Positions 1,062-33,914 are shown, numbered from the stretch's first letter. The stretch is 64,000 nt of DNA from Massalongia carnosa (GCA_965645245.1 OZ287072.1:186001-250000); one strand, 5' to 3'. The notes: a model not told the origin generated them from the letters alone. A program made the numbers and translations.

Positions 1062-1780
1062 GTATGTGATCGCTCATCGGGAAATCGGGAGATGACTAAT
1101 AGATCTTGATGATTAAATATTCGACTTTTTGGTTTCTTTAGTCTTTATTCGTCAACCTTTAGTCATTTGCCTTTATCTATTGTACGTCTTTTCGTCATAT
1201 TAGTCAGTGCAACCTGCATCTCAACAAATAATCGTCGCTCTGTCTCTACTTCTCGTCTCGATAAGCTTTATTATTCTCAGTACCTTGACCTTTTAATAAT
1301 TCAGTCGTATATTATCCACTCTATCCTATCTTTACGTCCTCTTTATCCGTCGCAGAGTAATTTTGGTTGTTCAGCTGCTCTCTTTACATGTCACATCGTC
1401 ATAAATTGGCTTCGTTGCAGCTTTTGTATCTTGCGTATAACATCTCTTTATAATGCGCAACCCACCCTGCATGTCTCATCGAAGATAATGTTACGCACAT
1501 TCAGTTCTCGAAGATCAACAGTATTCTACATCATTACGTGGTTGTGATTCTCATTATTCTTTGAATTGATGATTATCTGTTACTTGATGACGAGAAAGCC
1601 TGCTTAATGCTTAGAGAGCCCAGATCTTAGAAGACCAACTACTACCGCGACGACATATTAAGCTCATCTGTTCTGGAACAACAGTCCCTCTTAGACGGAA
1701 GCTCTTCCTTATCCTATCAAAAAGCGCATGCGTTTAGGAAACCAATTCTCTTCAATCCTAACATAACACAACAGGTTTCG

Positions 1781-1950
1781 TGTGACGAAGCGAGATAGTG
1801 AATAGATTTCTACCATTGCGCCACCTATCCTCCCGACCAAAAGGCACAATACTTAGTCCGCAGATCAAGCTCTATTCTACTATAACTGGGACTCCTGTTA
1901 TGTTCGCTGTAGGTCCTGCCGTCGAGACCACGCATGGTCGAACCGTTACA
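1781..1950. mobile_element. Solo LTR (same family as 42816-42984)
   Basis: TGTGACG...CGTTACA, highly similar to 42816-42984; no clear TSD (TTTCG vs TTACA). Confidence 0.8.
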
Positions 1951-2174
1951 TTACATTATAATCCCTAACGTTAAGTTATAATCCCAAACATAAGTTAAAC
2001 ACCTAATCCATCGAGTCTAAAGGATTCAAGAGCACATGTAGGTCTAGATATATGGGACGTGCGATCGGGGTGCGCTCTGGGTCGCAATACAAATGGACTC
2101 GGTTGGTTATATTAACCTGACAAATAGAGTCCACTACTTGATTTGTTCATCGGGATATATGCCACAAAATCCTT

Positions 2175-2480
2175 CGTATGGACGGTGGTCAAAGATAATA
2201 TGGATGATCGTATCGATAGTGGACAAGAAGGTGGTTTGGATGATAGTCAAAAGTTGGTATGGACGGTAGTCTGGATGGTGGTCAAAAGGTAATCTGGGTG
2301 GTGATCTGGATGGTAGATAAATGGTTGACGAAAGATGGTCTAGATGATGGTCAAAAGGTGGTATAAGAGGTGAACATTCAGTTCACGAAGAATGTGGCGA
2401 AGGGCCGTTGCGGAGCGTCGATGAGCAGGTCTGGGGCAGGAATTAGGCTTTTCGGGGGTGCTTACTATATTCAGTACTAT
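2175..2480 (+). repeat. Degenerate GGATGGTGGTCAAA-type tandem array followed by a motif shared with 48784-48800; possible non-autonomous Helitron relic
   Basis: Repeated TGGAYGRTRGTC units at 2175-2365; AGGGCCGTTGCGGAGCG at 2401-2417 is identical to 48784-48800. Confidence 0.45.
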
Positions 2481-2649
2481 CGTCTCCGCAAAGAACACTG
2501 TTGTCCTCTGCTATGTCCGCCGTCTTCAACGCTTCAGGTCTGAAGTGCCACGAACTCGTTGCCGCTTCCATGATACCTGGTAACTATTGTTACAGGTTAA
2601 CGGATATCATTGTATGTTAACCGTTGCTAAAAATTGCTAATCACAAGGA

Positions 2650-2856
2650 TTAGACATCAACTTTGCTGTTAGATGCTGTCCACTGCTGTTAGATGCTTCC
2701 AGCTCTTGTTAGATGACGCGCTTTGCTATTAGATAATAGAGACTTCTGTTAGATGACACCCTTCGCTGTTAGATGCTGTCAGCTGTTATAAGATGTTTCT
2801 AACTCTTGATAGATGACACGTTTTGCTGTTAGATGTTGGGTTCCCTTATTAGATGA
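2650..2856 (+). repeat. Array of ~10 CTGTTAGATG-core repeats, ~15-21 bp spacing
   Basis: Directly visible; reverse-complement core ATCTAACAG is arrayed at 21271-21345. Confidence 0.8.
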
Positions 2857-4973
2857 ATGACAGCAGTTTTGCAAGATTAGCATATCCTTATCAATGTTTT
2901 ACTTTCGATTTGATTGGTTTGATATCTGCTTTTCCGCCGTATCTGCTGCCCGGATCCCTTTGGCCAGAAATTCCTCGTCGTATAACGTGTTGAATTGATC
3001 CCAGTCTATGTAATTGTTGACGTAAAACACGTCTGAGTTGATTCCCGATGGTATCAAATGTGCGCTACGCATTATCATAGATAGATCGTAGAATCGTCTA
3101 CCATTCAAATTTCGGGGGATTTTGCGTGTGTTCTGGGCCAAGTCTTCATTTCTATCATTCCATGTATTTCATTCGGTTGACCATTGTTCCGAGGCCGTAA
3201 AAGATCAAGAAGCACACCAGAATACATCGGGTGTTTGCCTCGAGAGTCTCTTCTGGCATGATCAACAATGGTAACAATCAATTGAACATGTCCTATCAAT
3301 CTTCCCTCTAGAGCTCTAGAATTGCCAGTTCCGTGGCACTCTCCTGCAGAATTTTCCTGAACCCATACGTAATCTCGTCTCCAGTTTCTACTCCTCATCC
3401 AGCTTGGTGCGCAACGTATGATTTCGGACTTGAGCGCCTCCAGGTCCGATGAATCCTTGCCATCCCGTATCCAGCATTTGATACCTTTATGTATCGAAAT
3501 CAAATGTGAGCCCGCCCAAGAAGAATCCGTCTCTCGTCGATATAAATTAGCATTGCTAGTTCGTACACCCTCCAACTTGTATCGGCCTTCTCTGATGAAT
3601 ACTGCCAAGGCGTCGAGGAAATCGTGAAGATGAAGCACGTCCGCAACACGAAAAGCTTCTCGCCATATTTTGTAACTTCGTCCGACCGCTTGCAGTTGAT
3701 CCATTTCTTCCTCATCCCACGACCAGTCTAGTGACGAAAGATCGAGGGCTCGAGTAAGCGAGGACACTTGCACTGTCATCTCTTTATCTACTTGATTTCC
3801 CTTTCTGCTCTGCCTGTAAAGCTCAATGTCTTTCATTGCCAGGGAGTTGAGACGTCGCGTGTTGTGTTGTGCTATTTGATCTAAATAACCGTCTTTCTTG
3901 TTGGTCCTATCGAAAAAAGCTTTAACTAGATATCGATGAGCAGCTTCGCTGTGAGAAGTATCCATCCCATCTGCGCTGCCGAATTGTTTGATATGCTCCA
4001 CATAATGTGTCATGACATGCCACTTAGGAAAATTAAAGGTGGGTTGACCGGTTTCGTTGTCTTTGGGTCGACTTTTTCCAAACACCCTTTTGAGCTTGTC
4101 GATACGATACAACGCATTGTGGCGAAATCACAGATGGCTCGAACGCAGAGCATAGCAGCAGGACATTTGCCAGTCAGAAATGGAGCCACAACAGGAACAA
4201 ATATTCTTAGTATATCCTTTTGTTCGTTCCCCGACCATTGTGTTATCTTACTGAACTTCGAGAAATGTTGAAGATCAGAAAACGAAGGCACAACGTCAAA
4301 TCGATGGTCGAGCTGTGCAGCAATGGGCGCTTCCTCAATCAAAGCCTCGTCAAATCTTCGTTTTCTTTTGATTGGCGTTATATCATCAATAAGGATCTGA
4401 GTCCATTCTATCATATTCATTATAATGCCCTTCAGCAGTTGATGAAGTATATCAACCATCATTACACCGTGTATGTTGACCAATTGATGTTTCCAAGCAA
4501 AATTGGTCACTGGATGTACCCAGGCTTCATTTGCCTTTGGAATTACTTGTCTAGTTCGGCTATGCTGAGAGCTAGTGCGTCGTTAATCGAGACAGCTCCC
4601 GCTTTGATTTCGGCACCGCATGGATCTCTCGGACGGCATAGATGTCTCAGCACCATAAGGATGTCTCAGCACGGCATAGAGATCTTAGCACCGCATCGAT
4701 CCTTCGGACGACAGTTAGGTTTCGGATTTGTGTATGCCTTGCTATGGGCCGCGTTGATGGGGCATACTGGGATGGTAGAGTAGGACAAGGAGAATAGGAA
4801 GAAGATATATAAAGAGGAGGTCCCAGACGGTATCCCTCATCATCTCACATCTCAAGACAATCAAAAGCATAGCATTTTGATAGCACTGTTTGCAACGTTT
4901 TCTTTTCACCCAATTCAAATTTATACAACCACTACACTTAAATTTACTCTATTCAAATCCCTCTCCTCCAAAA

Positions 4974-6128
4974 ATGGCCACCCGCATCTCCAACAGAATC
5001 ACCAAGCCTACCTCCCGCACACAAGGCAGCACTCTAGCCCGTACTAGAACTAGAGCTAGGGCAAATCTAGCCAACTCCAACCCAGACGTCGAAGTACCCG
5101 ACTCACAAGACAGCACGGCAACCCTTCAAAGCCATCCTCAACCTTCTCCTCTTCCATCTTCAGCGTTTAATTCCTCCTCACAAGGGCCTGTTATACCGGA
5201 AACCCGTTCTCGCACCCCTGATGACATTATTGAACTTAGAGCACAACGCGAAATGTCCCGCAGGGAAGCCGAGGAAAGAGAAAGAGTAAGTCTTAGGCGG
5301 GATATCGAAACCCAACAAGCACGTGCCCGAGACGTGGTCCCTGGGCCAGTAGCCTCAGCTCAACAGCCTTCCCTATTATTTCCGACATCATTTCCACCGC
5401 ATCGACCAAACTCATTGTATACAGAAGGTATGGATCCTCGTTTTGTTTCTCTTATGAACGAATATCCCACTATCAAGCCCATATGGATAAAGCAAATCTC
5501 CGAGAATACGTTTGACCCAATCAACATTACCAAGCTATGTACCGACATCGACGGAGTTCAAACCAACTCTAGATACGTCAAACTCGGAGAAGGTCTGGAA
5601 ATCGCCACGAGAGAAGAAGATGGCTCCTTAAAAGATATCAAAGGGATAGTTCATTTGATACGATGTCTCGGGGTATATTGGATGATACTACTACACTTTG
5701 CACACCCCGGTCTCCAGATAAACCTGATGAGAGCCTTCATGGCTTATCAGGACCATCTTCTATCATTATACGCCTTCTACACCTGGGACTCGGTTCGCAT
5801 CTTTCATTTGAATTTCCACAAATCTCGAGCCTTTCGCGGGATTGACAACCCGGATGGATGGAAAGAAATGGACCATTCCTTGGAAAGGCATCTTGTGCGG
5901 AAACCGTCCGCTTACTTTGCAAAACCGGACGATAATTCTACGGCTTTCAAAACCTCAGGCGAAAAGATTATCTGTAAGAAATACAACTATGGCAAAGACT
6001 GTCCCGTATATTGTAGATTCCAACATGTGTGTGAGAAATGTGGAAAGCAACATCGGGCGATGGACTGTACAAATGGAAAAAATCAACCCTCTAACCCAAA
6101 TTCGATGCCTCTCCCATCAAGGCAATGA
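4974..6128 (+). CDS. Ngaro A Gag-like protein with C-terminal Cys/His zinc fingers
   Basis: ATG at 4974 downstream of TATATAAA (~4805); C-terminus CKKYNYGKDCPVYCRFQHVCEKCGKQHRAMDC. Confidence 0.85.
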   Translation: MATRISNRITKPTSRTQGSTLARTRTRARANLANSNPDVEVPDSQDSTATLQSHPQPSPLPSSAFNSSSQGPVIPETRSRTPDDIIELRAQREMSRREAEERERVSLRRDIETQQARARDVVPGPVASAQQPSLLFPTSFPPHRPNSLYTEGMDPRFVSLMNEYPTIKPIWIKQISENTFDPINITKLCTDIDGVQTNSRYVKLGEGLEIATREEDGSLKDIKGIVHLIRCLGVYWMILLHFAHPGLQINLMRAFMAYQDHLLSLYAFYTWDSVRIFHLNFHKSRAFRGIDNPDGWKEMDHSLERHLVRKPSAYFAKPDDNSTAFKTSGEKIICKKYNYGKDCPVYCRFQHVCEKCGKQHRAMDCTNGKNQPSNPNSMPLPSRQ

Positions 6129-7745
6129 CTAACCGCCCCATTCTTATCCATCGCGGAGTCCTTTCCATACACCTTGACGGACAATCTAACAAAGATCCCA
6201 CCGGGCCCATTGAAGAAAGAAGGCTGGGAGAAACATTTGGCCAATCACCCGGATCGCACTTACACACAAACAATTATCGATATCATCACCTACGGTGCCA
6301 AAGTTGGTTATACAGGACCACATCAACTCATTATTAGCGATAATCTTGCCTCTGCAAATGAGGCACCGGAAGTTCTTACCAATGACCTCGAAGAACAAAT
6401 AGCTAGTAATCGGTTGGAGAAAGTCAACAACATTCCTTCTTGCTTTATATGTTCCCCATTAGGCCTTGTACCAAAGGCTAACGGTGGTTGGCGGCGAATC
6501 CATCATCTATCGTATCCGGAGAGTAGCTCAGTCAACGACCACATACCGGAAGACTGGGGCTCCCTGGAATATACCAGCTTCGACGAAGCCATTAGGTTGA
6601 TTGAGCAACGCGGGCCAGGGTGTATTCTTATTAAAAGAGACTTTGCGGACGCTTTTCGCCACATACCAGTAGCAAAAAGCGATTGGTGGTTACTAGGTTT
6701 CAAGTGGCAGGATTCCTTTTGGATGGATAAATACTTACCCTTTGGGCTGAGAACGTCGCCGTTCCTTTTTGATCTGTTCGCGAAGGGTATCAACTGGATA
6801 TTGTACAACTGTGGTTGGAAAGACGCTATTCATTACTTGGATGATTTTTTAATAATAGTCAGCACCGGACCAGATGCTGAAAAGTTTGATCAAGTTTTCC
6901 ACAACATTTGTAAAGATCTTGGCATGAAAATCAAGCTCGAAAAGAACAGAACTGGAACGACTTGCGATTTCCTCGGCATTGAAATCGATACCGCGCTCAT
7001 GGAAGCACGCTTGCCTTCCGAAAAGTTACTAAAAGCAAAGACCCTAGTATCGGCAGCTTTGAATAAAAAAGCCATACCCAGGAAGGAACTCGACTCTCTT
7101 CTAGGATTCTTATGCTTTGCAGCCAGAGTGGTAAAACCAGGAAGAGCCTTTCTACGCCGTCTTTTCAATGCTACGGCAAGCGTAACCTCTAAACTAATCC
7201 ATCTTAACAAGGACATGAGGGCTGATCTTCTATGGTGGCATCATTTCCTACCTAAATGGAATGGCATACATCTGCTCAACCGTACTAGACATACTATGAG
7301 AATATGGACAGATGCGTCCGGCTCATATGGTATGGGCGGCTTTATCCTCAGCGAGGATCAAAATTTGCATAATATACAAGCAGCCCGGCAGGCTTTTAGC
7401 ACACGCTTTACTACGCGCCTTAGGGCAAAGCATATCAACGTCAAAGAAATGACAGCAATTCTTCAAGCTATGAAAAAGTGGCTACCTATATGCAAGGGTA
7501 GTCATTTAATCCTCTATTGTGATAGCTACGCTGTCACGAAAGGAGTGAATAAAACCTCTATACGAGGCCAAGCAATGCATGCCCTGCGGGCAATTACAAT
7601 GCTAGCTGCATTACATGATATCCAGATAGAAGCGCGATGGATATCATCCAAAGAAAATTATATTGCTGATCTCTTGTCTAGAGGACTTTTGAAGAAACTG
7701 GCTGACAAAATCCCTCAGTTTCAGGCTCTACCCTCAGCAATATAG
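6129..7745 (+). CDS. Ngaro A reverse transcriptase/RNase H (in frame with gag, no early ATG)
   Basis: SPLGLVPK, WRRIHHLS, DFADAFR, LPFGLRTSP, HYLDDF, TDAS, INVKEM, ADLLSR. Confidence 0.92.
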   Translation, partial: LTAPFLSIAESFPYTLTDNLTKIPPGPLKKEGWEKHLANHPDRTYTQTIIDIITYGAKVGYTGPHQLIISDNLASANEAPEVLTNDLEEQIASNRLEKVNNIPSCFICSPLGLVPKANGGWRRIHHLSYPESSSVNDHIPEDWGSLEYTSFDEAIRLIEQRGPGCILIKRDFADAFRHIPVAKSDWWLLGFKWQDSFWMDKYLPFGLRTSPFLFDLFAKGINWILYNCGWKDAIHYLDDFLIIVSTGPDAEKFDQVFHNICKDLGMKIKLEKNRTGTTCDFLGIEIDTALMEARLPSEKLLKAKTLVSAALNKKAIPRKELDSLLGFLCFAARVVKPGRAFLRRLFNATASVTSKLIHLNKDMRADLLWWHHFLPKWNGIHLLNRTRHTMRIWTDASGSYGMGGFILSEDQNLHNIQAARQAFSTRFTTRLRAKHINVKEMTAILQAMKKWLPICKGSHLILYCDSYAVTKGVNKTSIRGQAMHALRAITMLAALHDIQIEARWISSKENYIADLLSRGLLKKLADKIPQFQALPSAI

Positions 7746-8761
7746 GACGCGATCCACCCCCATCTTGGTACAGTGAGGTACCTTTAGACGAAATCGCAGC
7801 ACGATACCTCTGGTGGGGCCTGGCCACTAAGACAAGATCTTTATACACAACGGCAAGAAAGGGATACGTTCTTTACTGTAGGGTAAACCTCAACGCGCCA
7901 CCATTTCCAGCCAACATCCGGACGCTGTCTTCGTGGATCGCAGCGTTGGGTGAACGACGCCTGCAACCAAAAACTATTAAGAGCTACTTGACGGGCATAA
8001 GATCATGCCAGATAGATATGGGCCTCGGTAATCTCGACGTATTTCATCACCCGGTGTTAGATCGCATCCTTACTGGCATAAAGCGAAAGAACGGTGAAGC
8101 CGAGAAACGTGAAAGGTTACCAATTACTAGAGAGATCTTAATCAAATTGCTAAGTCGTCTTGATCAAACGAAAGAGAAAGGCGCAAATTTACATGCGGCG
8201 TACTGCTTAGCGTTTGCAGGCTTCTTACGAGCCGGAGAATTTACTTACACAACGCAAGATGTACTAGACCCAAGCTTTGATCAATGGCACCTCACCAGAA
8301 AATCTATTAGGTTCGAAGCAGATCACCTACAGCTCTCTCTACCAGTCTCCAAAACCGATCCCTTTCGCCGAGGCATAACACTGACAATTGCGGCTACCAA
8401 CGATGTTGCTTGTGCACTAGCTTCTCTTACAAATTTATATAGGCGATTCCCAAGTTCTCCGGCCGCACCACTCTTTAAAAACGGTCAGTCCTTCACTCGA
8501 GACTACATTACAACAGCGATGAAATCCACCTTAAGGAACTTGGGCTATATAGGAAATTTCTCTGGCCACTCGTTCAGAAGAGGTGCGGCAACAACAGCGC
8601 GACGGGCAGGACTCACCGAAGACGAGATTCAGATGCTAGGAAGATGGAAGTCAGACGCATACAAGCTTTACATACAAACCCACCCCACTTACCTTCTTAA
8701 CGCCTCAAAACGCCTTCAAACATTACCCACGGAACCTCACAATCCAGTCACTAGGTCCTGA
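7706..8761 (+). CDS. Ngaro A tyrosine recombinase (open frame starts at 7706 without ATG)
   Basis: FLRAGE, SKTDP, GHSFRRGAA, GRWKSDAYKLY; frame open from 7706. Confidence 0.92.
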   Translation, partial: QNPSVSGSTLSNIGRDPPPSWYSEVPLDEIAARYLWWGLATKTRSLYTTARKGYVLYCRVNLNAPPFPANIRTLSSWIAALGERRLQPKTIKSYLTGIRSCQIDMGLGNLDVFHHPVLDRILTGIKRKNGEAEKRERLPITREILIKLLSRLDQTKEKGANLHAAYCLAFAGFLRAGEFTYTTQDVLDPSFDQWHLTRKSIRFEADHLQLSLPVSKTDPFRRGITLTIAATNDVACALASLTNLYRRFPSSPAAPLFKNGQSFTRDYITTAMKSTLRNLGYIGNFSGHSFRRGAATTARRAGLTEDEIQMLGRWKSDAYKLYIQTHPTYLLNASKRLQTLPTEPHNPVTRS

Positions 8762-10130
8762 ACAACACCGCAAGCGGGTCGTTCCATGTTGGGGATTGGG
8801 AGTCTGTTCACAGCCCAAGGCCTGCGAGAGGGTCTTACATTAGTAGACAGCAAGGCCCTTATCGAGTCCCCCTCTCGAGGCCGGGGGCTGTGAGCAATAG
8901 CCCAAACATACTTAGTAGCAATATAACGAGATTGACACGAACTAGCTAGTTCGGCTATGCTGAGAGCTAGTGCGTCGTTAATCGAGACAGCTCCCGCTTT
9001 GATTTCGGCACCGCATGGATCTCTCGGACGGCATAGATGTCTCAGCACCATAAGGATGTCTCAGCACGGCATAGAGATCTTAGCACCGCATCGATCCTTC
9101 GGACGACAGTTAGGTTTCGGATTTGTGTATGCCTTGCTATGGGCCGCGTTGATGGGGCATACTGGGATGGTAGAGTAGGACAAGGAGAATAGGAAGAAGA
9201 TATATAAAGAGGAGGTCCCAGACGGTATCCCTCATCATCTCACATCTCAAGACAATCAAAAGCATAGCATTTTGATAGCACTGTTTGCAACGTTTTCTTT
9301 CCCACCCACCCACTCCAGTTCTTCTGTCGCTTAGATAGAGGGAGTCTGTTCACAGCCCAAGGCCTGCGAGAGGGTCTTACATTAGTAGACAGCAAGGCCC
9401 TTATCGAGTCCCCCTCTCGAGGCCGGGGGCTGTGAGCAATAGCCCAAACATACTTAGTAGCAATATAACGAGATTGACACGAACTAGCTCTCTTGTTTGG
9501 CGATTTGAGATCGAGTTGTTTCATGTGTGCGTGGATCCCATTTTCCTAGTAAATTTTCTCTTTCGTTTGAGGGAACCTGGCAAATGCTACAATGACGCTG
9601 ATATTTTATCCCCGTAATCAAAACCTGCTCTTCGTAGTCCACAGTGAAGCCGGCGATAATAGGATAACATCGTCGCACATGTCCATCGGCACAAGTCAAA
9701 AGGATACCATTTTTGAATGTTGTTTGATAGCTAGCACGGCATTCAAGTCATGGTTAGTTATCGTTATAATAAGGAGGGAGTGAAACTCACGTCTGAGCAT
9801 CATTTTCATTGCAAGATGATAGACCTGAGCTTTCAGTTCGTCTCCCTTCTCCTTCTCCTTGACAATAGGGATAAAACCTAACAAAACGATACCCGGTCTA
9901 TTGGGCTGGCGTCGAGTCTTTCGATCCAAGTTTCCAATCGTAAGATAAACAGGCCACGCCGACTGATCTCCATGATGCTGGGTGAGTCTTGTTTTGTCTG
10001 TAGCTAAGAGAAGTGGCACAACTGTTGCATTTTCAGGAAGCTGTTCTTGAATTGACCACCACCAGTCACCTGTTGCCATTTCACTGAACATACGTAGATC
10101 TGCGCTATTATACTGACGGATGGGTGCGTA

Positions 10131-14953: not shown

Positions 14954-16639
14954 TGAGATGTCCTACCGAGCCTTATCCTATGTGCTGTCCTTGCGTAGAT
15001 CGTTCACCATCTGCCAAACTCATTACCTTACCTGGTCCTTCATTAGTTTTCGCAGTAAAGAATCTATTACAGAATTGGAAGAATGAGTGGGAGAAGTCAG
15101 TGGACACTCAACGCTCCTCTTTGATGGATCTTCAGTTGTTTATAGCAGCACATCGAGATGAAAAGACTCTGCAACTACAATACCACCATCGACTCAGTCT
15201 ACATACGAACTCCGACGATCAGCCAATCTCCGGTTAGGAGCGATATGTGGTGCTAACTACTACGGGCTCTTACCAGGGTCAAGTACAAACACTACTCCGG
15301 AAGCTAATTCCACGTAAAGAACTGGCGTCCAATGGGGGCGCATCATTGTAGATGAGATCCATAAGCAAAAGAGTGTCTCCGCTACACTTCCCAGCCTATT
15401 GCATATCGTCGCGGGAAAGTACTTCAAACATCGACATCTCTCCTATGGATATGGCCGGCTATTTGCGAGCATTGGCTACCGAAAGCTGGGAAGCAGACTC
15501 AGTGCTACAGCATGGAACTAGAGCGGGATTAGAAAGCATTGGAAAAACCTTTCACGTATTGATAAAAAATCAAGCCGGTAACATAGAAGATAAAAAGAAG
15601 GTAACGGGAACTTTCAGAGCGCTGCTACAGCGGATTATGATTCGCCGGACTAGTCAGAGTCGTTGGTTTGACGACCAGCCATTGATAGATATTCCCCACA
15701 TAGACATCAAGAGGTGCCATGCCTCTTCAAGAAGAAATACGTCGCCGACATGAATGCGCTCATAGTCATAGCGGAGACAAAGCTCAAGGAAGATTGTGCA
15801 GCACGAAGTGCAGCATGGATCGATAGAGGTCGGATAGGAGAGGCACCAAAGCGTCCTTTTGTGCGTTTCTATGACCCTTATCGGTGCCGTTACCTTCGCT
15901 TGCGCTGGGGGGGCTTTTAATTGGATGAATTGATTTGAATGCTTGAATTTGATTGGGCATGGGAACGACACAGGTCAGCCCGGGCAGGCCTAGGCACGTG
16001 ACTCGGGGTCGGTGCTGAGGTGAGAACCTCATCTTCTAGGCCCGAGGCGTCTGCTGACGCTCAACGATCCGATAGATGATGCCCGACGGCAGTGCCCGAC
16101 GGCGATGATCTAGATGGAGGTGCCCGGCGGCGCTCCGGATCGATGCCCTGGTTGACCTGTACGCCCATCGCTCACTTAAGGTGGCTTCTAACTAGCTATG
16201 AATCTCGGGTGGCCGAGGGTGGGGAAAAGCAGCAAGCACTGACAGCGAGGTAGGGGCACCGAGACAACGTGGGGTCGACGACGAGTCAGTGAGATGGATG
16301 AGGCCGAGTGAGAAGAAGTGGATGAGGAAAGAATTTTCAGAGGGTGATTCTTAATTTACTTTGACTCAGGGGCCTCACGTGACATAGAACCATCTCATCT
16401 ATGACCCTTATCGGTGCCGTTACCTTCGCTTGCGCTGGGGGGGCTTTTAATTGGATGAATTGATTTGAATGCTTGAATTTGATTGGGCATGGGAACGACA
16501 CAGGTCAGCCCGGGCAGGCCTAGGCACGTGACTCGGGGTCGGTGCTGAGGTGAGAACCTCATCTTCTAGGCCCGAGGCGTCTGCTGACGCTCAACGATCC
16601 GATAGATGATGCCCGACGGCAGTGCCCGACGGCGATGAT

Positions 16640-17803
16640 CTAGATGGAGGTGCCCGGCGGCGCTCCGGATCGATGCCCTGGTTGACCTGTACGCCCAATG
16701 GAATGCCCAATTGAGTAGGGGTAGGAGTTTGTAGGATTCGTCTCGGCGACGACAGCACGTGGGACTGCTAGAGGGATGCCTTTTTGAAAACTGAGGTTCA
16801 AATTGAATAGTGAGGCCTGGGACGTCTGAAAGTATAGCTGAAACGCGTTTGATGACCATCTTCCGAGTCTCTGAATACTCTCATCCAGCATCCCGTGGTC
16901 GGCGGCGTGTTGTGCTGCTCCTTTTCTGAAGCTGTGTCCCGAGTATGCCGAGTCGTTGATGCCGACGGCTATCAGTCTCTTTTTCAGGGATGCTATGACG
17001 GAGGCTCTGGTGAATGCGGTGCCGAGACGAAAAAGCGGGGATGTAGATGGCTGAGGATCATTTCTGAAAAGACGCCGTAGTGCTGTCACGGGGCAAGTGC
17101 TCTCATTGGTCGCTGCCAGCACTATCTGAACTCCTGAGTGATTTGTGTCTGTTTTGCTTCTTTTGAGACGTAATGTCGCGTATTGATCGTTCTCGGCGAA
17201 TGAGATGTCACCTCGTGTAGGTTTCAATCTCTGAAAAGATGTCTTCTTACGATCAGCGACAGTGTAGGTGATTTCCCCGAGTCTGAGGAACCCTGCCCAT
17301 GCAACTTTGAATGTCGCGTCGATGTTGAGGTCTTCGGCCGAATGAGCGGGAATACTGGTGATTTTTGTCAGTAATTCTTTTGAAATGGGTAGGCGTCTTC
17401 TTTTTGTCTGAGAAAAGATCCTTTTTCCCCCTTTCAGCATCAATTGAAGTCTCGGCCCCTCGAATGGGGTGAGGCCGTATCCTCGGTCTACATGGTATGA
17501 TCTGAGGCCGGCGAGGTAGCTCGCTGCCGTCTCTGGTTTTATCTTTCCCTGCTTGGGTGTGCCGCCCCCGTATAGTCGACCGGCTAGCCATTCCTCGAGG
17601 GACTCGGTTGTTGCAGGCCACGACGTGCGTCCCGTCGTCGCGCAGAATGCCTCGTATGAGTCGATCGCCGTCCCGTACCCTTTTCTCGTGTCCGCCGAGT
17701 GTCCGTGCCAGACGAGACGTTTTACCAGGGCTGACCCTGGTGTGGAGGATAGGTAGGTGGAGGGAGGTTCATCGAATTGTATGGGTTCTGCCAATGAGGG
17801 CAA
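16640..17803 (-). CDS. Ngaro B tyrosine recombinase
   Basis: FLRLGE, KRSKTD, GHSFRKGAA, GRWSSNAFQLY. Confidence 0.92.
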   Translation of the reverse strand: MPSLAEPIQFDEPPSTYLSSTPGSALVKRLVWHGHSADTRKGYGTAIDSYEAFCATTGRTSWPATTESLEEWLAGRLYGGGTPKQGKIKPETAASYLAGLRSYHVDRGYGLTPFEGPRLQLMLKGGKRIFSQTKRRRLPISKELLTKITSIPAHSAEDLNIDATFKVAWAGFLRLGEITYTVADRKKTSFQRLKPTRGDISFAENDQYATLRLKRSKTDTNHSGVQIVLAATNESTCPVTALRRLFRNDPQPSTSPLFRLGTAFTRASVIASLKKRLIAVGINDSAYSGHSFRKGAAQHAADHGMLDESIQRLGRWSSNAFQLYFQTSQASLFNLNLSFQKGIPLAVPRAVVAETNPTNSYPYSIGHSIGRTGQPGHRSGAPPGTSI

Positions 17804-19425
17804 AAGTTAGCCAATCTTTCATCATCAAAACGTGACAGGGCATCTGCTAGTCCATTGGAAGTGCCACTGATCCATTGACAACGTAGTACGATGTCCCACT
17901 TTGCAGCTATGGACAGTATTTCTCGTAGAGGCGCGTTGGCCGGTCCCTTGAGGGTTAGATTCGTGAATCCTGTGTATGCTGTGTTGCTGTCGGTAAAGAC
18001 AAGGATCTGTCGATGTCGCCATGTCGGCGCCCATTTCTGAAGGATTAGAAGGATAGCTTCGACTTCTCGGACGTTTATGCTCGGTGATCCTTCCTGATTG
18101 AGGACTAGGACTCGGGCCCTACATGCGTTTTTTTGATTCACGAGCTCGTTGTCTTGTTGAAAATAGCCTCCGAGACCCGTGAGGCATGCATCCGTATGCA
18201 CCTTGATCGTGTCTCGTGTTGACGTCTCGAAGAAGACAATACCGTTGAAGTCCACTAGAAGTTTGTTCCACCAGATGAGATCCTGTCTGACCCATGTGGG
18301 AATTCTTCTTTTGACCCGACGATGACTGCCCGAGGGAAATGAGGCTATAAAATTCCAGAATAATCGTAAGAAGACTCGGCCCAATTTGACTGCCTGTGCG
18401 CAGAAGCTTAGGAAGCCCGCTATTGACTGCATGTCGCCGAGGCTGATTGTCGTCTCGTTTAGTGCCTTTGTAGTGATGATTCTCGCTTTTTCCAGCTTGT
18501 CCGCTGGCAGACGAATAAGACTGTTGATGGTGTCGACCTCGAGTCCGAAGACTGTCGCTGTCGTTCCCTCGGCGTCTTTTGAGTCGTTTCTCGGGATGCC
18601 GAGAATGTCGGTGAGAATGTTGTAGGCTTTTGTTTCTTGGTGCAATCGTTCTGACGATGTCTCGGATGGGAAAATTGCAACGAAGTCGTCTAGATAGTGA
18701 TGTAATCTCCATTGTAGAAAGGATTCCAAAATCCAATGAAAGCCTTCCGCAAAAAGATTGAAGATGAACGGGGCCGTCGACAGTCCGAACGAAAGGCATG
18801 TCTCGGTGTAGAATTCGTCATTCCATCCGAAACCCAGAAGCCATTGATGATGAGGTGCGACGGGAACGTTTCGAAAGGCGTCTTTGACGTCTCTTTTCAC
18901 TATGACAGCACCTTTGCCCGCTGACAGAATCAATTGAATAATGTCGTCGAGTCTGGCGTATTGTAATTTGGATGCCTCTTCTGGAATGTTGTCGTTGACT
19001 GATGTTTGATTGGGATGAGACAGATGATGAATGCGTCGCCATCCTCCGTCATGTTTCGGGACCAAGCCGAGGGGGGAGGCCACAAATGGCTGACTCGGGG
19101 CGGCTATTCGTCTGACTCGGCCCTTCCTGAGGTCCTCTTGGAGCTTATTCTCGATCGTTTCCGGGTCCTCATTCGCTGATGTCAGATTTTTTTCGATCCG
19201 AAGGATGTCTGTGGGGCCTTCGTATCCGATTTGTACTCCGAAACGAAGGATCATGGGCAGATGGACTCGGAGGGGGCCCGGATACTCTTGAAGTAGAGTT
19301 GCCCATGCGGACGGTACGAGGGGAGATGGGCTGTCTTTCAAACGCTGACGAGATGCGTCTACGAGTTGAAACGAAGGGATTGTATTTGGTCTGATTGGTG
19401 CAGGTAAGCAGGGATGGGACGTCAT
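17722..19425 (-). CDS. Ngaro B reverse transcriptase/RNase H
   Basis: SPLGLVPK, DVKDAFR, LSFGLSTAP, HYLDDF, HTDAC, INVRE, TDS, ADALSR. Confidence 0.93.
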   Translation of the reverse strand: MTSHPCLPAPIRPNTIPSFQLVDASRQRLKDSPSPLVPSAWATLLQEYPGPLRVHLPMILRFGVQIGYEGPTDILRIEKNLTSANEDPETIENKLQEDLRKGRVRRIAAPSQPFVASPLGLVPKHDGGWRRIHHLSHPNQTSVNDNIPEEASKLQYARLDDIIQLILSAGKGAVIVKRDVKDAFRNVPVAPHHQWLLGFGWNDEFYTETCLSFGLSTAPFIFNLFAEGFHWILESFLQWRLHHYLDDFVAIFPSETSSERLHQETKAYNILTDILGIPRNDSKDAEGTTATVFGLEVDTINSLIRLPADKLEKARIITTKALNETTISLGDMQSIAGFLSFCAQAVKLGRVFLRLFWNFIASFPSGSHRRVKRRIPTWVRQDLIWWNKLLVDFNGIVFFETSTRDTIKVHTDACLTGLGGYFQQDNELVNQKNACRARVLVLNQEGSPSINVREVEAILLILQKWAPTWRHRQILVFTDSNTAYTGFTNLTLKGPANAPLREILSIAAKWDIVLRCQWISGTSNGLADALSRFDDERLANFCPHWQNPYNSMNLPPPTYPPHQGQPW

Positions 19426-19470
19426 GAATTCAGCTATTGAAGCTATTCTACTGCCTCCTGCACCAACCCC

Positions 19471-20484
19471 CTATTTCTTCGTTGGGCATGTCTTCTGGCC
19501 ATGCCCAGCCGCGCCGCACGATTTACATTTGTGCTGTCGGTAGCACGACGGCCAGGTGCAGGTGCCGCTGTTGTACTTGTCGCAGATTTCCCCCGCTGCC
19601 TTCTCGGCCCTATCGGCCCTGTCTCCTCTCGGGGTCGGTCGCCGGGACGGCGGGGATCGTGAGCGGCGACGGCGTAGGACTGTGAGGGGGGTGCAGAATC
19701 GAGCTTGGAATTCGTCGGGCATTTTCCATTGGGATGCGTCGGATGGCTGAGACGCGATGATGTGAGTGTGGGTTTCGATGGCGAGGGGGAGGACTGCTTC
19801 CTGCCACTCGTACACCTTGGCCAGCGTGAGGATTTTTCCGTGGAATGCCGACATGGTGGCGTGAAGCTGTTGACTCGATTTCCCGAAAAGACTGACCATG
19901 ATCGAGGTGTAGTTGATGAAGCTCTCGGTCCAGACGTCATGAACTGTCTTTCCGAAATCTTTGTAGGTCCCGGATGCCTTTCTCAACCTCAAGGCGCCGT
20001 CTTCGATGCCGATGCGGTCCTGATCCTTGTAGGACTCGTATTGCATGCCGTGCATGTGTCGGAGGCGGGAGAGGTTGATGGCTTTGAATTTATTTGAAAA
20101 GATCTTGATGATCTCGTCCTGTGGTAGGCCCGCGAAACGGGGTGCTATACTTCTTACTTCGAGAGGGATCTCACCTAGGTCCTCGTCGTCATCGCCGACG
20201 ACACGACTCGGCTTGCCAGCAGGAATGACGGCCGCTATTCGGGCGTCAGATTCTCGGCGCATGCAGTCGATTTCTAGCTGCATTTTTTCCACCTCCTTCT
20301 CGGCGACCAATGCCTTGGACTCGGCAATTCTGGCCTCAGCCTCGGCCGCCTTCGCTTCTGCCTCGGCTTTCTTCTTTTGTAGGGCGAAGATTTGATTGGA
20401 CTGGGCCTGCGTCAATCCGACAATCTCCTGGGAGTCGGGGACTATGTCGTCCATCGGGGTGCTTTGGGAACGGGTGTTCGTCAT
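19471..20484 (-). CDS. Ngaro B Gag-like protein
   Basis: ATG at 20484; coiled-coil-like N-terminus; C-terminal CDKYNSGTCTWPSCYRQHKCKSCGAAGHGQKTC. Confidence 0.85.
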   Translation of the reverse strand: MTNTRSQSTPMDDIVPDSQEIVGLTQAQSNQIFALQKKKAEAEAKAAEAEARIAESKALVAEKEVEKMQLEIDCMRRESDARIAAVIPAGKPSRVVGDDDEDLGEIPLEVRSIAPRFAGLPQDEIIKIFSNKFKAINLSRLRHMHGMQYESYKDQDRIGIEDGALRLRKASGTYKDFGKTVHDVWTESFINYTSIMVSLFGKSSQQLHATMSAFHGKILTLAKVYEWQEAVLPLAIETHTHIIASQPSDASQWKMPDEFQARFCTPLTVLRRRRSRSPPSRRPTPRGDRADRAEKAAGEICDKYNSGTCTWPSCYRQHKCKSCGAAGHGQKTCPTKK

Positions 20485-21270
20485 TGGGAAAAAGCACCGA
20501 CAGCGAGGTAGGGGCACCGAGGACAACGTGAGGTCGACGACGAGTCAGTGAGATGGGAAAAGCAGCAAGCACTGACAGCGAGGTAGGGGCACCGAGACAA
20601 CGTGGGGTCGACGACGAGTCAGTGAGATGGATGAGGCCGAGTGAGAAGAAGTGGATGAGGAAAGAATTTTCAGAGGGTGATTCTTAATTTACTTTGACTC
20701 AGGGGCCTCACGTGACATAGAACCATCTCATTTCTTGACGGCGTACAAGTTACGAGTCGCCACGACCTTTTCATTCTTGGCCAAGCTGTACAAGAATTAC
20801 AATTCTAAACCTATCGAAATAACAAAAAAAGAGTGACATATCAAGCCAGATCCAGAGTTTAATCCATATGTGCAGCATCTTGGGGAGACCATAGAATCGA
20901 GCTTTGACTAGAATGAGCTGATGTATTCGTTAGGTCAGGAGCATAACGACACGAGAAAATCTATTGACTATGTTATCTTCCCTAGCCGGATGTCATGTTG
21001 CATTTGTGGTGCGTCACATCCTATACTACTCTCATTATCGATTCAATGAAATAATTTAACCTACTGCATAGAACAGATACTAAAACATAGAATGAATACC
21101 GACGTTCAAAATAACAGTCGCAGCGCTCACGATACTGGAGGACTACGAACTATCTACATATGACTCGGGATCACGGGCATTGGAGACTTTATCGTTTGAG
21201 ACTTTTGAGGTTTGACATACTGAACCTTTTACAGAGATGATCTACGGTAAGCTAACACTAACTAATCCTA

Positions 21271-21345
21271 ATCTAACAGCTAACAGGATTTTCTTGATCT
21301 AACAGGGTTTTCATGATCTAACAGGGGCTGTTTTAATCTAACAGG
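21271..21345 (+). repeat. ATCTAACAG repeat array (inverse of 2650-2856 core)
   Basis: Four ATCTAACAG copies plus partial units. Confidence 0.75.
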
Positions 21346-21552
21346 AACCGTTAGCATATCATAACAAAGTCAACTATCCTAACACGCTAGATTTGATTGC
21401 AATGGCAAACTTGTTCCTTTTACTTTTCGCGTCGATCTCTTCTACTTTGCTCGTTTCCCAAACCCACAGGTATTGCATATTCCTTGTTGCTTCTTTTTTT
21501 TCACTATGTCAACATCAAAGGCAACCACTACTAACAACCCACAAAGAATCAC

Positions 21553-23924
21553 AATGGTACGAACCTCCCCAGGATGTATAGAAACCAACGTGTATCGGCT
21601 GACTTTGCTTTTCCTTCGAGAACTCTCAGGATTTTGATGATTCGCCTTCCGAGGAAGACTTGCCTACATTGGCACAAGTAAAACGCTCTCGTGCACAATT
21701 TGATGGAAATAACACTTACGGAGACAACAAACGCTCACATCGCCTGCCTTGTGTGGACGAGTTGGCTGAATCTAGTACTGGCAACGACTCAAGCGATGCG
21801 AGTTTCCAGCCGAGTGTAAATAGTACAGTCATGAATGCATGTATCGGGTTCTGACTTAGAACAGAAAACGCCGATAACTAAGTATGTGGCGAGGACATTA
21901 CGGGCCGGTGCAGGCCGCGGTATTCAATACAGCTCAAGTTCTCCATCTCGAAGGAGCTCCTTACGAAGGGCAACGTTCCCCTCGTCTCCACCGAGAAAGC
22001 CTTCCCGCGCACTGGATAATATCTTGTCACCTTCACAAATACGCACTCGTCGGGGTTTGCCTGCGACACTCTCCTCGCAAACTCTCGAGATCTCAAAGGT
22101 CCTCCCGATCAAGTTTACTTCCGGCACAAGGGCTGGCATAACGGAGGACGAGACAGTCTCCGAAATCAAAAAAATAGATGCTTATCGTTTACTCTGGGGT
22201 GACATATCAAGGCGAACCAAATTCAACTCTGGCCCTGCTCATCAACCAATACTACGTGCCATGATTCCTTTTTTCAACGCTCTGATAACATCCGGACACG
22301 TGGTTGAATTATGTTCGCCTTGGGCGAATACACAGAAGCCTCGATTGAGCAAATTAATGAGTCGTACTTGGCAGGACCTTGCGAAGCGTCTCGGTGACCT
22401 TCCTGGCAACCGGAACGTCGACGTAGCAGAACTTCCCACCGCCGAAGAGGCTCGCAGGGTAGGTGAGGACTTGCTTACAACGGTTGTACATATAAAAACT
22501 AATCTGAGACTAGATTTATGATTCGACAACGGATTTTCGCTCTCAAATGTTGAGCAAAGTGAGATTGCTTGTGGCTAACGAATACCCGTTCTCAGTTCAG
22601 AGCGACTGTCGAATATTCGTGTCCACTTTGCTAGACGATCTTCATTTTCTGTGCGAAGATTTATCAACGGTTAATATGTCCTAGTTATCTTGATATAAAG
22701 TTTAACTAACTCGCGAGTAGGCTCCGAAAAGGCAGTTTCTCGCGCCTATCTTGATAAAGGCAATTACTCTGATATTCTTCAATAACGACAATGACTGCAG
22801 CTATGGACGCAATATCGACACTGCGCATTTGTTCAATCCACTTCGAGGAGAAGTGATCGTGTTGATAGCAACTCTGATTCAACATTCTATTGGAGAGTAT
22901 GAATACGGGCAAAAAAAGGTACAGGCTTTTGATGGGTCACAGCGAGAGAGTAAGTTTGTATCAATATAATCTTTGCTGAGTTGAGGCATTAATACTGAAA
23001 AGCAACCCATACTCGAATGACGAACACCTGGAATCAACAGTCCTCGGAGAGAAAGATGCTGTTACAAAGAATCATTCATCGGCGGGTTATGCGTCAGACT
23101 GGACAAAGAGATGGGGACTTTTCGGCGGTCACAGAAGCTGTCCACAATCCATTTGCCACTTCTATTGACGATCTTGTAGATCTTGATGCGGGAGATGAAA
23201 TGACAAAGTCGGTCAGGTCGACAGCGCGGCTTTCTTCCTTGACAGCTTCGTGTAGAACTTCGATCGTTCGTTGCGAGGAGGTGGATTCGGGTTTTTCGGT
23301 ATGTCTTGATTGGTATTATGCTTTGGAATTATCAGTAACAACAATAGAAGGAAACCTCTTCACCTAGACCGCCGCAGTTGACGAGCCACGAGGTATGCAA
23401 TCTTATTAACCGCGTTCTAACGTAGTGTTAACATCTCTCCTAGAATTCTTCGCAGCGTGGACCCTCACAATTAAAGCATAGCGCAGCAAGTTCATCCTTC
23501 GTAAGTATTCGCTTTATTTATAGAATATCTATTAGTCTAACAATTGCGTTGGAAACAGATTAACGACAAGATATCGTCAACTCCAACTCCACTCGCGCAA
23601 GACGCAATCGTGACGACAGATTCGGGTCAAGAAGATGCGGTAGATTACGATTTACGCATAGGGAAAGACTGGCGGATTAGGATGAGGTATGATGCAACGT
23701 GGAAGGAGTGGCAGACTGCTGTGGGAATGAAAGATGGAGAGTCGTTCTGGTATACTGTACCAACATTTCCCGAGGCCGTATTGAGCTTTGAGGAGGAATA
23801 TAGTTCGTTTTTGGATCGGGTGGAACAGGTGCATAGAGTAATGATACGAAGAGGAAACTGGGCGCAATCTCAAGCAGATGAAGACTCTGCGAGGGAGGAC
23901 GACAATATGGGAGAACTCACATAA
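21553..23924 (+). pseudogene. Uncharacterised multi-exon gene in the right arm of the Plavaka element, probably degraded
   Basis: Consecutive + strand frames (21660-21854, 21835-22521, 22751-22969, 23544-23924) separated by intron-like GT..CTRAC..AG segments; no recognisable family. Confidence 0.5.
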
Positions 23925-24369
23925 CATTATTTAAACTAAATCTTGATAATATACTCGACTGGTGTGTTTTTATTGTCGTATCTTGCAGCATCAAGCGCTC
24001 GAAATGGAAACAAAAGCAGTGCATTTTGACATACGCAAGATTTGTTACAATCGTTACTAAAACAACAAGTTAATTAATGAAATTATTGGATTCAAATGCT
24101 TATAACGACACAAAAGAGTCAATATAACAATTATCATCATTGGACAAAGAAAGGTAAAGGTAATCAATAGTCAAAGAGCAACTGTTTACACGTCAAATGT
24201 TCGACTATTCGTCAAGCGCCCATGTCAAACGTGGGCGCAATCGGCAGTACCTAGAACATTTCGGCTAATTGACTAATGTAGCCTATTAGTCGACCATTTG
24301 ACCAATTCGCGGGTCCTCCCGATTCCCCGATGCTATATGAGAGTTCATATTTAAAATAAAATTTCTCAG

Positions 24370-24889: not shown

Positions 24890-25010
24890 AGAACTCATTA
24901 AATACTAGTTCATGAGCTCGAGTAATGAAAACCAGGAGGATGATTTCGATCTGTTCTATAATGATAAAAAGTTAAGTGCTCATTTAGATAAACTCTTTTC
25001 ACCCGAAATC

Positions 25011-26230: not shown

Positions 26231-26320
26231 TATGTTTAGAAGACATGAGTTTGTTATGTGATTATAAGGAAAATTGGTTGCAAGTTTACGAAGTGAGTCA
26301 TTTGAAACGAGCTTGATTAA

Positions 26321-33912: not shown

Positions 33913-33914
33913 AA

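What the first reader, a model, noticed from the sequence alone, without database searches (positions are those of the whole stretch)
1073..24334. Exact ends of a Plavaka element: CA..TG 17-bp TIRs and a 2-bp TSD, supported by intron restoration
Seen: CT|CATCGGGAAATCGGGAG ... CTCCCGATTCCCCGATG|CT. Removal gives GTATGTGATCGCTATATGAG...TTTCTCAG, a phase-correct intron joining KTHQEG to EIKPF. TATTCGTCAA occurs near both ends (1146-1155, 24206-24215). Knowledge: short CA..TG TIRs with 2-3-bp TSDs typify CACTA/CMC elements; Plavaka is known mainly from its protein. Inference: a ~10.1-kb multi-gene Plavaka unit.
Basis: partly seen in the sequence, partly recalled or inferred. Interest (0 to 1): 0.78.

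Follow-up and report, generated by a model that had tools for sequence, protein, structure and literature searches.

The report
Plavaka transposon ends confirmed, already known type

Summary
CATCGGGAAATCGGGAG (1075-1091) and its inverted copy (24316-24332, 16 of 17 bases) are flanked by CT/CT.

The decisive evidence is a 4.8-kb contig from a public run. It carries the uninterrupted site: left flank 1042-1071 runs straight into G-CT-ATATGAG. In three other runs, 13 contigs lose likeness exactly behind 24332 into unlike flanks, so these are other copies with the same end.

The insert is 23,258 bp. Removing four nested elements leaves 10,272 bp. These are two Ngaro-like retroelements, a Tc1/mariner and a MULE-like element.

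It encodes:
- a Plavaka transposase (PF18759) with its catalytic motifs kept, broken by two insertions and two frameshifts;
- a DUF6532 gene;
- an SNF2-like helicase remnant.

The ends are not new. Kojima 2025 (PMC12730594) gives PlavakaB termini CATCA..TGATG with 2-3-bp duplications, and one published family starts CATCAGGAAATTGGTGA.

I found no description of two features: a DUF6532 gene inside related Plavaka elements (4 of 22 metagenome loci), and inverted CTGTTAGAT arrays in both arms.

Verdict: a new member of a known kind.

The parts
1073..1074 (.). Left copy of the 2-bp target-site duplication (CT)
   Evidence: The empty-site contig of run X1 carries a single CT here.
1075..1091 (+). 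Left terminal inverted repeat, CATCGGGAAATCGGGAG
   Evidence: It matches the start of published PlavakaB-1_SLL (CATCAGGAAATTGGTGA) at 12 of the first 14 positions (compared by eye).
24316..24332 (-). Right terminal inverted repeat (16 of 17 bases match the left one)
   Evidence: In runs X2, X4 and X3, 6, 3 and 4 contigs lose likeness exactly behind 24332.
24333..24334 (.). Right copy of the 2-bp target-site duplication (CT)
2908..12228 (-). Plavaka transposase gene. It is interrupted by the Ngaro-like element A and the Tc1/mariner, and has two frameshifts (about 4115-4193 and about 3115) and at least one intron (about 9715-9790).
   Evidence: PF18759 scores 124 bits against a cut-off of 26.3. 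P0001 residues 14-1027 are covered, and the breaks fall exactly at the nested elements. After excision in a script, one segment covers residues 14-611. The motifs ATDKT, VDYEEQ, CSIC, PKWHVMTHY and SEAAH are kept.
12702..15750 (+). SNF2-like helicase gene remnant, divergent from the transposase and split by the MULE-like element. No Helicase_C part was found.
   Evidence: SNF2-rel_dom gives a weak hit, E 0.016. The SNF2 ORFs of metagenome locus L004, which also lie next to and divergent from a Plavaka transposase, hit 12702-12935 (E 1.8e-14) and 14956-15696 (E 1.2e-22).
21835..23364 (+). DUF6532 gene (several exons; homology runs over 22514-23211), just inside the right end and divergent from the transposase
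   Evidence: PF20149 gives E 2.1e-10 and 41 bits against a cut-off of 24 for ORF 22721-22966. The atlas nearest clusters are DUF6532. DUF6532 ORFs of L003, L010, L011 and L036 hit this region. The outer limits of the gene are my estimate.
2666..2834 (+). Array of CTGTTAGAT motifs at a 20-bp period (5 exact and 2 one-mismatch copies), left arm
21271..21344 (-). Array of the same CTGTTAGAT motif in inverted orientation (4 exact and 1 one-mismatch copies), right arm
   Evidence: All 9 exact copies in the 64-kb window lie in these two arrays.
4551..9489 (+). Nested Ngaro/PAT-like tyrosine-recombinase retroelement A (gag-like, RT/RNase H, YR) with split direct repeats: 4551-4912 matches 8946-9308, and 8798-8947 matches 9340-9489
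   Evidence: It lies between transposase residues 464 and 465.
10131..11467 (-). Nested Tc1/mariner element (DDE_3) with 27-nt TIRs and a TA duplication
   Evidence: Its removal restores a 418-aa transposase reading frame.
13123..14953 (.). Nested MULE-like element with a 9-bp duplication (GAGATGTCC, offset by one base at the right). A second copy lies at about 26911-28790 with the duplication ATCGTCCAA.
15867..20733 (-). Nested Ngaro/PAT-like retroelement B. A second copy lies at 29600-33914 (98.6% alike).
941..1061 (+). Host gene exon upstream of the insertion (Crypton-like tyrosine-recombinase gene)
24370..24889 (+). Host gene exons downstream of the insertion (24370 to about 24530, and about 24599-24889)

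Best explanation
This is one insertion of a Plavaka DNA transposon. Plavaka belongs to the CACTA/Mirage/Chapaev/Transib-related clade, and this copy has PlavakaB-like ends. Its limits are 1075 and 24332.

A DDE transposase of this family recognised the 17-bp CA..TG inverted ends. It cut the element out of a donor site and pasted it into a 48-nt intron of a Crypton-like tyrosine-recombinase gene. A 2-bp staggered cut of the target was filled in to give the CT duplication.

The element was about 10.3 kb and carried three genes. The transposase is on the minus strand. An SNF2-like helicase gene lies upstream and divergent from it. A DUF6532 gene sits just inside the right end.

Four other mobile elements landed in it afterwards: two Ngaro-like retroelements, a Tc1/mariner and a MULE-like element. 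Two frameshifts also arose, so this copy can no longer make transposase. It could move only if a transposase from another copy acted on its still intact ends.

Shown: the ends, the duplication, the empty site, other copies with the same right end, the gene content and the nesting.

Inferred from what is known of DDE cut-and-paste transposons: the cutting and joining chemistry, and any role of the DUF6532 and SNF2-like genes.
For: 1. TIR pair and CT flanks.
2. The empty-site contig in run X1 joins 1071 to 24332/24333 and keeps a single CT.
3. In X2, X4 and X3, 6, 3 and 4 contigs run on unlike exactly behind 24332. Consensus agreement is only 0.56-0.58, so the flanks differ.
4. Summed contig depth over 21146-24441 is several times that of the flank in most bins of all 4 runs. 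In X1 it is 604-1395 against 348.5. The tool says this is not a copy number.
5. The transposase scores 124 bits on PF18759. It aligns to P0001 over residues 14-1027 and keeps the D, D, C(2)C, H(3)H and E motifs.
6. Published PlavakaB ends are CATCA..TGATG with 2- or 3-bp duplications, and the PlavakaB-1_SLL terminus is very similar to this one.
7. In metagenome loci L003 and L011 a CATCAG...CTGATG pair encloses a Plavaka transposase and a DUF6532 ORF. L010 has the same left end. Likeness among the copies starts and stops exactly at those bases.
8. Host-gene homologues align without a gap across the junction in 5 of 9 cases.
Against: The left end rests on the TIR symmetry and on the single empty-site contig.
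2. No genome is held for this window, and the window has no second copy. I could not tabulate duplications of other copies in the same genome.
3. In the two related metagenome elements with both ends, the flanking dinucleotides do not match: TA/TC in L003 and TT/TA in L011. That is 0 of 2. Several copies in the published Fig. S2 also lack matching flanks.
4. The fifth base is G, not the A of the published PlavakaB consensus.
5. I could not place the transposase in the published A/B tree, because the reference sequences are cut in the copy I could read.
6. The stretch 20734-21145 has much lower depth than 21146-24332. Other copies break at 20988/20991 and 21206, so most relatives in those runs are not collinear with this copy.
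Confidence: 0.9

Rival explanations
1. Same element, but with a 3-bp duplication GCT. The element would end at 24331 (CATCGGG...CCCGAT), because G at 1072 equals G at 24332.
For: The empty-site contig aligns from 24332, which shows that this base is ambiguous. PMC12730594 states that PlavakaB families make 2- or 3-bp duplications.
Against: It would break the symmetry of the inverted ends. The 13 contigs of other copies in X2, X4 and X3 are listed as losing likeness behind 24332, not 24331. A base belonging to the duplication should differ in most copies. Note that 142 further loose ends were not shown.
Confidence: 0.07
2. Composite element. The CATCGGG ends and the DUF6532 arm would belong to an outer, mostly non-autonomous element. 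The transposase/SNF2 core, bracketed by the inverted CTGTTAGAT arrays, would be a separate unit that came to lie inside it.
For: Only 21146-24332 is at high depth in the runs. Other copies break at 21206 and 20988/20991. One X1 contig joins sequence like the left CTGTTAGAT array directly to 20991 (read). The two arrays are inverted and flank the core.
Against: No second inverted-repeat pair exists between the arms. The best inverted match between them is the terminal 17-mer. L003 and L011 hold a transposase and a DUF6532 ORF inside one CATCAG pair. The breakpoints are what internal-deletion derivatives of an autonomous element would give.
Confidence: 0.05
3. The inverted 17-mers and the CT flanks are a chance pair, and the 23 kb is ordinary intron or intergenic DNA.
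For: A 2-bp flank match alone has a 1 in 16 chance. 1 of 100 shuffles gave two matches at up to 3 mismatches.
Against: An allele without the whole 23,260 bp exists. The right end is shared by other copies. The ends match a published family.
Confidence: 0.01

Closest known systems
PlavakaB families of Kojima 2025 (PMC12730594), e.g. PlavakaB-1_SLL of Serpula lacrymans
   Same: [quoted passage not shown]
- Termini begin CATC and end GATG.
- 2-bp duplication (the paper gives 2 or 3 bp).
- Size class: published insertions in Fig. S2 span about 6.2-9.3 kb, against 10.3 kb here once restored.
- The first 14 bases match PlavakaB-1_SLL at 12 positions.
   Different: - The fifth base is G (CATCG..CGATG) where the published consensus has A.
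- The published complete families are from Agaricomycotina. The nearest named transposases here, at 47-50% identity, are from assemblies labelled Sclerophora and Chaenotheca, and one holder run is a lichen metagenome.
- This copy has no TET/JBP gene.
- I saw no mention of DUF6532 or SNF2-like genes in the passages I read.
PlavakaA families (same paper), e.g. PlavakaA-1_LB
   Same: 2-bp duplication. The inner part of the terminus is similar: TGTCGGAAAAATCC there against CATCGGGAAATCGG here.
   Different: PlavakaA ends are TGT..ACA. This element starts CA and ends TG.
Plavaka consensus elements of Tuber (PMC12581995)
   Same: 2-bp duplications and short TIRs starting with CAT (passage read).
   Different: The motif given there is 5'-CATAC-3', not CATCG.
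En/Spm (CACTA) elements
   Same: - Related DDE transposase clade.
- CA..TG ends.
- More than one gene.
- Short repeated motifs in inverted orientation in the two arms. The comparison with TnpA-binding subterminal repeats is from my own knowledge.
   Different: - The ends are not CACTA or CAC..GTG.
- The duplication is 2 bp, not 3 bp.
- The motif arrays lie 1.6 and 3.0 kb from the ends, not in the first few hundred bases.

Membership tests
Plavaka (CMCT clade) | Transposase matches Pfam PF18759 above its curated cut-off | tested here: met
   ORF 9696-10178 scores 124.2 bits (cut-off 26.3), E 9e-36. P0001 (1030 aa, PF18759) is covered over residues 14-1027.
Plavaka (CMCT clade) | [quoted passage not shown] | tested here: met
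   The window translations hold ATDKT, VDYEEQ, C-S-I-C, H-VMT-H and SEAAH. These sit at the columns that are invariant in 28 relatives: D415, C431, C434, H660, H664 and E684. Which D and E are catalytic is taken from the paper, not tested.
Plavaka (CMCT clade) | 5'-CA..TG-3' termini with short inverted repeats | tested here: met
Plavaka (CMCT clade) | Target-site duplication of 2 bp (A) or 2-3 bp (B) | tested here: met
   CT lies on both sides and is single in the empty-site contig. A 3-bp GCT reading is formally possible.
PlavakaB subgroup | Termini 5'-CATCA..TGATG-3' | tested here: inconclusive
   The termini here are CATCG..CGATG, 4 of 5 bases at each end. Related metagenome elements L003, L010 and L011 have CATCAG.
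PlavakaB subgroup | Transposase falls in the PlavakaB branch of the published tree | not testable with these tools
   The reference consensus sequences are cut at 400 characters in the supplement copy. No Repbase is at hand.
En/Spm (CACTA) | Termini CACTA or CAC..GTG | tested here: not met
   The element starts CATCG.
En/Spm (CACTA) | 3-bp target-site duplication | tested here: not met
   A 2-bp CT is the reading that keeps the ends symmetric.

The most novel reading that the evidence does not exclude
Plavaka elements of this lineage are multi-gene transposons. Their conserved DUF6532 gene always sits just inside one end and divergent from the transposase. It would encode the element's accessory DNA-binding factor, in the manner of En/Spm TnpA, acting on the inverted CTGTTAGAT arrays in the two arms. 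The SNF2-like helicase, or an SF1 helicase in other lineages, would be further element-borne machinery.

The co-location is shown here. DUF6532 lies next to a Plavaka transposase in 4 of 22 metagenome loci, and inside the inverted ends in L003 and L011. One full-text search for DUF6532 found one paper. It lists the domain beside Plavaka in genome counts and draws no link. The function is pure inference.
Probability: 0.15. Interest if true: 0.5.

Novelty: new member of a known kind. Interest (0 to 1): 0.3.

Why it matters
This is a clean, base-exact example of a Plavaka insertion. It has a filled site, an empty site and other copies sharing the same end. It extends the published CATC..GATG, 2-bp pattern to a fungus that is probably outside the mushroom-forming groups in which complete elements were described.

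For annotation, the 23 kb should be masked as one Plavaka with four nested elements. The flanking exons should be joined into one Crypton-like gene.

The side observation may help to explain what DUF6532 proteins are and how these large transposons are organised. DUF6532 genes, and in some lineages SNF2-like or SF1 helicase genes, travel inside Plavaka elements. That observation is a lead, not a result.

Tried and rejected
1. Whole-genome search.

2. Earlier notes of this scan held nothing on this genome, this sequence or Plavaka.

3. Word-based protein searches with the 228-aa ORF 21835-22518 and the 82-aa DUF6532 ORF, both against longer proteins only, gave no hit. This is weak evidence, as the tool says.

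4. Pfam on the host-gene exons gave no family. Homologues P0045, P0052 and P0057 give only sub-threshold Phage_integrase matches, and P0031 and P0146 give none. 'Crypton-like tyrosine recombinase' is therefore an inference from those weak hits and from the H-x-x-R / Y motifs I recall.

5. PDB sequence search of the SNF2-like ORFs gave only E 0.34 and 0.58 hits to SNF2L2 for one ORF and nothing for the other. The SNF2 assignment rests on locus L004 instead.

6. Subterminal repeats near the ends. TTAGTCA occurs 14 times in the window, with a shuffle mean of 7.9. Four of the 14 lie within 135 nt of an end. This is suggestive only. TATTCGTCAA is judged to be chance.

7. The inverted-repeat scan of 47 of the 80 metagenome loci gave mostly noise. 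Only L003, L011 and perhaps L051 (CATCTGA, 14 of 15) look real. Most contigs are too short to hold both ends.

8. The genome search on metagenome loci: the records are not held.

9. I did not predict a DUF6532 structure. The available ORFs are single exons of about 80 conserved residues.

10. The parts of the laid stretch with low depth (20734-21145) are not used as evidence of absence.
Full report
**The observation**

The 17-mer CATCGGGAAATCGGGAG lies at 1075-1091. Its reverse complement, with one mismatch, lies at 24316-24332. These are the only two matches in the window at up to three mismatches. Dinucleotide-preserving shuffles gave a mean of 0.23, and 1 of 100 gave two or more. Each copy is flanked on the outside by CT.

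No further inverted similarity follows the 17 bases. The terminal 17-mer is also the best inverted match between the two arms of the element.

The shared TATTCGTCAA is at the stated places, but both copies are on the same strand. By my own estimate, one shared 10-mer between two 600-nt stretches is about what chance gives. I do not count it.

**The intron**

Read, the upstream exon ends at 1061 in phase 1. Stretches 1062-1074 and 24335-24369 together make a 48-nt GTATGT...CAG intron. G(1061) plus AA(24370-24371) gives the E of KTHQEG|EIKPF.

An exhaustive HMMER search with the last exon (24584-24886) found 302 relatives at E up to 0.001. I ran nine full-length relatives back against the window. 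Five of them (P0031, P0045, P0049, P0052 and P0056) have segments that abut at the junction within three residues. The other four matched the upstream and last exons but not, or only later in, the middle exon.

The window exons match no Pfam family. Three of five homologues give Phage_integrase matches below the curated cut-off. I therefore call the host gene a Crypton-like tyrosine-recombinase gene by inference.

**The empty site and other copies**

No genome is held for the window. I looked for public runs holding 20734-25500 (five holders in three studies, with shares of sampled words from 0.42 to 0.57). I then laid four of them on 20734-26900.

In run X1, labelled a lichen metagenome, one contig of 4810 bp lies on 24332-25801 and 26146-26874. 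It shows 26 other letters in the first piece. The 30 letters before 24332 read as window 1042-1071. It holds one CT.

In runs X2, X4 and X3, 6, 3 and 4 contigs run on unlike exactly behind 24332. Consensus agreement is only 0.56-0.58, so the flanks differ. These are other copies with the same right end. The table notes that 142 further loose ends were not shown.

Summed contig depth over 21146-24441 is several times that of the flank in most bins of all four runs. The tool warns that this is not a copy number.

Because G(1072) equals G(24332), a 3-bp GCT duplication is formally possible. The symmetry of the ends argues for 2 bp. So does the position of the loose ends, which lie behind 24332 and not 24331.

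**What lies between the ends**

The insert is 23,258 bp. Self-comparison and repeat finding show four nested elements:

| Element | Coordinates | Strand | Marks |
|---|---|---|---|
| Ngaro/PAT-like tyrosine-recombinase retroelement A | 4551-9489 | + | split direct repeats, 99.4-100% alike |
| Tc1/mariner | 10131-11467 | - | 27-nt TIRs, TA duplication |
| MULE-like element | 13123-14953 | not assigned | 9-bp duplication; second copy near 26911-28790 |
| Ngaro/PAT-like retroelement B | 15867-20733 | - | second copy at 29600-33914 |

**The transposase**

The transposase lies on the minus strand from 12228 to 2908. ORF 9696-10178 scores 124 bits on PF18759. A 1030-aa relative (P0001) is covered over residues 14-1027, and the breaks fall exactly at the Tc1/mariner and at retroelement A.

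Removing the Tc1/mariner restores a 418-aa frame. After all excisions, one tblastn segment covers residues 14-611. That segment holds four in-frame stops, at least some of them in an intron with GTGAGT...CTAAC...AG signals.

Two frame changes remain with no gap in the protein alignment, near 4115-4193 and near 3115. The copy is therefore dead.

The motifs ATDKT, VDYEEQ, C-x-x-C, H-x3-H and SEAAH are all kept. They sit at the columns invariant in 28 relatives. This matches the C(2)C and H(3-4)H signature that PMC12730594 gives for Plavaka and its clade.

**Two more genes in the unit**

The first is a DUF6532 gene. ORF 22721-22966 (+) matches DUF6532 (PF20149) with E 2.1e-10, above the curated cut-off. 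The atlas look-alikes are DUF6532 clusters.

The second is an SNF2-like remnant. ORFs at 12702-13064 and 15352-15750 (+) carry SNF2-like motifs. On their own they give only a weak hit, E 0.016, with PDB hits at E 0.34 and 0.58.

To test whether these genes belong to Plavaka elements, I fetched 80 metagenome loci encoding relatives of the transposase. Of 598 pattern matches, 392 were confirmed and the best 80 were kept. I then scanned 139 ORFs of at least 100 aa, lying within 7 kb of the match, from 22 of those loci.

- DUF6532 ORFs lie next to the transposase in 4 of the 22: L003, L010, L011 and L036.
- SNF2-rel_dom or Helicase_C ORFs lie there in 4: L004, L009, L016 and L050.
- SF1 helicase ORFs (AAA_11/AAA_12, some with zinc knuckles) lie there in L004, L006, L007 and L015, with a weak hit in L025. 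L006 and L007 look like the same element.

These counts are lower bounds, because short exons were not scanned.

The DUF6532 ORFs of all four loci hit window 22514-23211. The SNF2 ORFs of L004 hit 12702-12935 (E 1.8e-14) and 14956-15696 (E 1.2e-22), broken exactly at the MULE-like insertion. In all, 6 of 21 query ORFs hit inside the element.

In L003, L010 and L011 the DUF6532 ORF is upstream of and divergent from the transposase, as it is in the window.

**Ends of the relatives**

I scanned 47 of the 80 loci for inverted pairs around the transposase. L003 (133..6039) and L011 (34..6712) carry CATCAGCAAAAGTGT ends, and L010 has the same left end. Likeness among these copies starts and stops exactly at CATCAG and CTGATG. 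The DUF6532 ORFs of L003 and L011 lie inside those ends.

Their flanking dinucleotides do not match (TA/TC and TT/TA). The 2-bp duplication is therefore confirmed in 0 of 2 of these older copies. Several copies in the published Fig. S2 also lack matching flanks. L051 has a possible CATCTGA pair. The rest of the scan was noise.

**Repeated motifs in the arms**

The exact 9-mer CTGTTAGAT occurs nine times in the 64-kb window, and all nine are in this element. Five lie on the + strand at 2666-2834, at a 20-bp period just beyond the 3' end of the transposase gene. Four lie on the - strand at 21271-21344. With one mismatch allowed there are 28 matches against a shuffle mean of 14.2, and no shuffle reached 28.

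The arrays are inverted relative to each other, but they lie 1.6 and 3.0 kb from the ends.

One X1 contig has, directly before 20991, 30 letters that match the left array at 28 of 30 positions (one search read). Other contigs break before 21206 and 20988. I read these as internal-deletion derivatives that keep both arms and the DUF6532 gene but lose the transposase. This is an inference from loose ends only.

**Comparison with what is known**

PMC12730594 (Kojima, December 2025) reconstructs complete Plavaka families. I read passages of the main text and the held supplement, including Fig. S2. It states that PlavakaA has TGT..ACA ends with 2-bp duplications, and that PlavakaB has CATCA..TGATG ends with 2- or 3-bp duplications. 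PlavakaB-1_SLL begins CATCAGGAAATTGGTGA. PlavakaA ends read TGTCGGAAAAATCC.

PMC12581995 (passage read) reports 2-bp duplications and a CATAC TIR motif for Plavaka in Tuber. [quoted passage not shown] PMC8290104 (passage read) says the Plavaka TIR motif was characterised in its supplementary figure, which I did not see.

The present element fits the published B pattern, with G instead of A at the fifth base. I could not place the transposase in the published tree.

The nearest named proteins, at 47-50% identity, come from assemblies labelled Sclerophora amabilis and Chaenotheca gracillima. This copy may therefore come from a lineage other than the Agaricomycotina in which complete families were described.

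One full-text search for DUF6532 found one paper, which lists the domain beside Plavaka in genome counts without linking them. A search for Plavaka together with helicase found 10 papers and listed 8. In the three whose passages I read, I saw no element-borne helicase described for Plavaka. The bioRxiv supplements, Repbase entries and the Iyer 2014 paper were not available to me and may describe such genes.

**Verdict**

The element is a new member of a known kind. The DUF6532 and helicase gene content and the inverted motif arrays are the only parts that go beyond what I found in print, and their function is untested.

Noticed in passing
window 25802-26145: A 344-bp stretch in the flank is skipped by contigs of runs X1, X2 and X4 (joint 25801 to 26146). 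It has very high summed depth in all runs. It looks like a high-copy miniature transposon that is polymorphic between samples. A second joint, 25591 to 26320, skips 728 bp in X2, X3 and X4.
   Followed up: partly
window 4551-9489, 15867-20733 and 29600-33914: Three copies from two families of Ngaro/PAT-like retroelements (gag-like with zinc knuckle, RT/RNase H, tyrosine recombinase). Their split direct repeats are 99.4-100% alike within a copy, so they look young.
   Followed up: partly
window 13123-14953 and about 26911-28790: A 1.8-kb element with 23-nt-plus inverted ends and 9-bp duplications, which is Mutator-like. Its 425-aa ORF (27098-28375, minus strand) matches no Pfam family at E 0.001. 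An autonomous MULE with a 712-aa transposase lies at 45309-47918.
   Followed up: partly
window 1781-1950 and 42816-42984: A 170-bp stretch inside the left arm of the Plavaka recurs at 42.8 kb (94.7% alike) with unrelated flanks. It may be a short interspersed repeat. No transposase lies at the second place.
   Followed up: partly
window 34942-41578: A Gypsy-type LTR retrotransposon with a chromodomain integrase. Its 422-bp LTRs are 100% identical.
   Followed up: no
window 55095-58880: An intron-less 1262-aa ORF with an NPHP3_N (NACHT-like) N-terminal domain and WD40 repeats, like fungal NLR-type proteins. Fructosamine-kinase and MFS transporter genes follow it.
   Followed up: no
loci L004, L006, L007, L015: Large SF1 helicase ORFs (AAA_11/AAA_12), two of them with CCHC zinc knuckles, lie directly beside Plavaka transposases in metagenome contigs. 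Whether they lie inside the element ends is not known.
   Followed up: no
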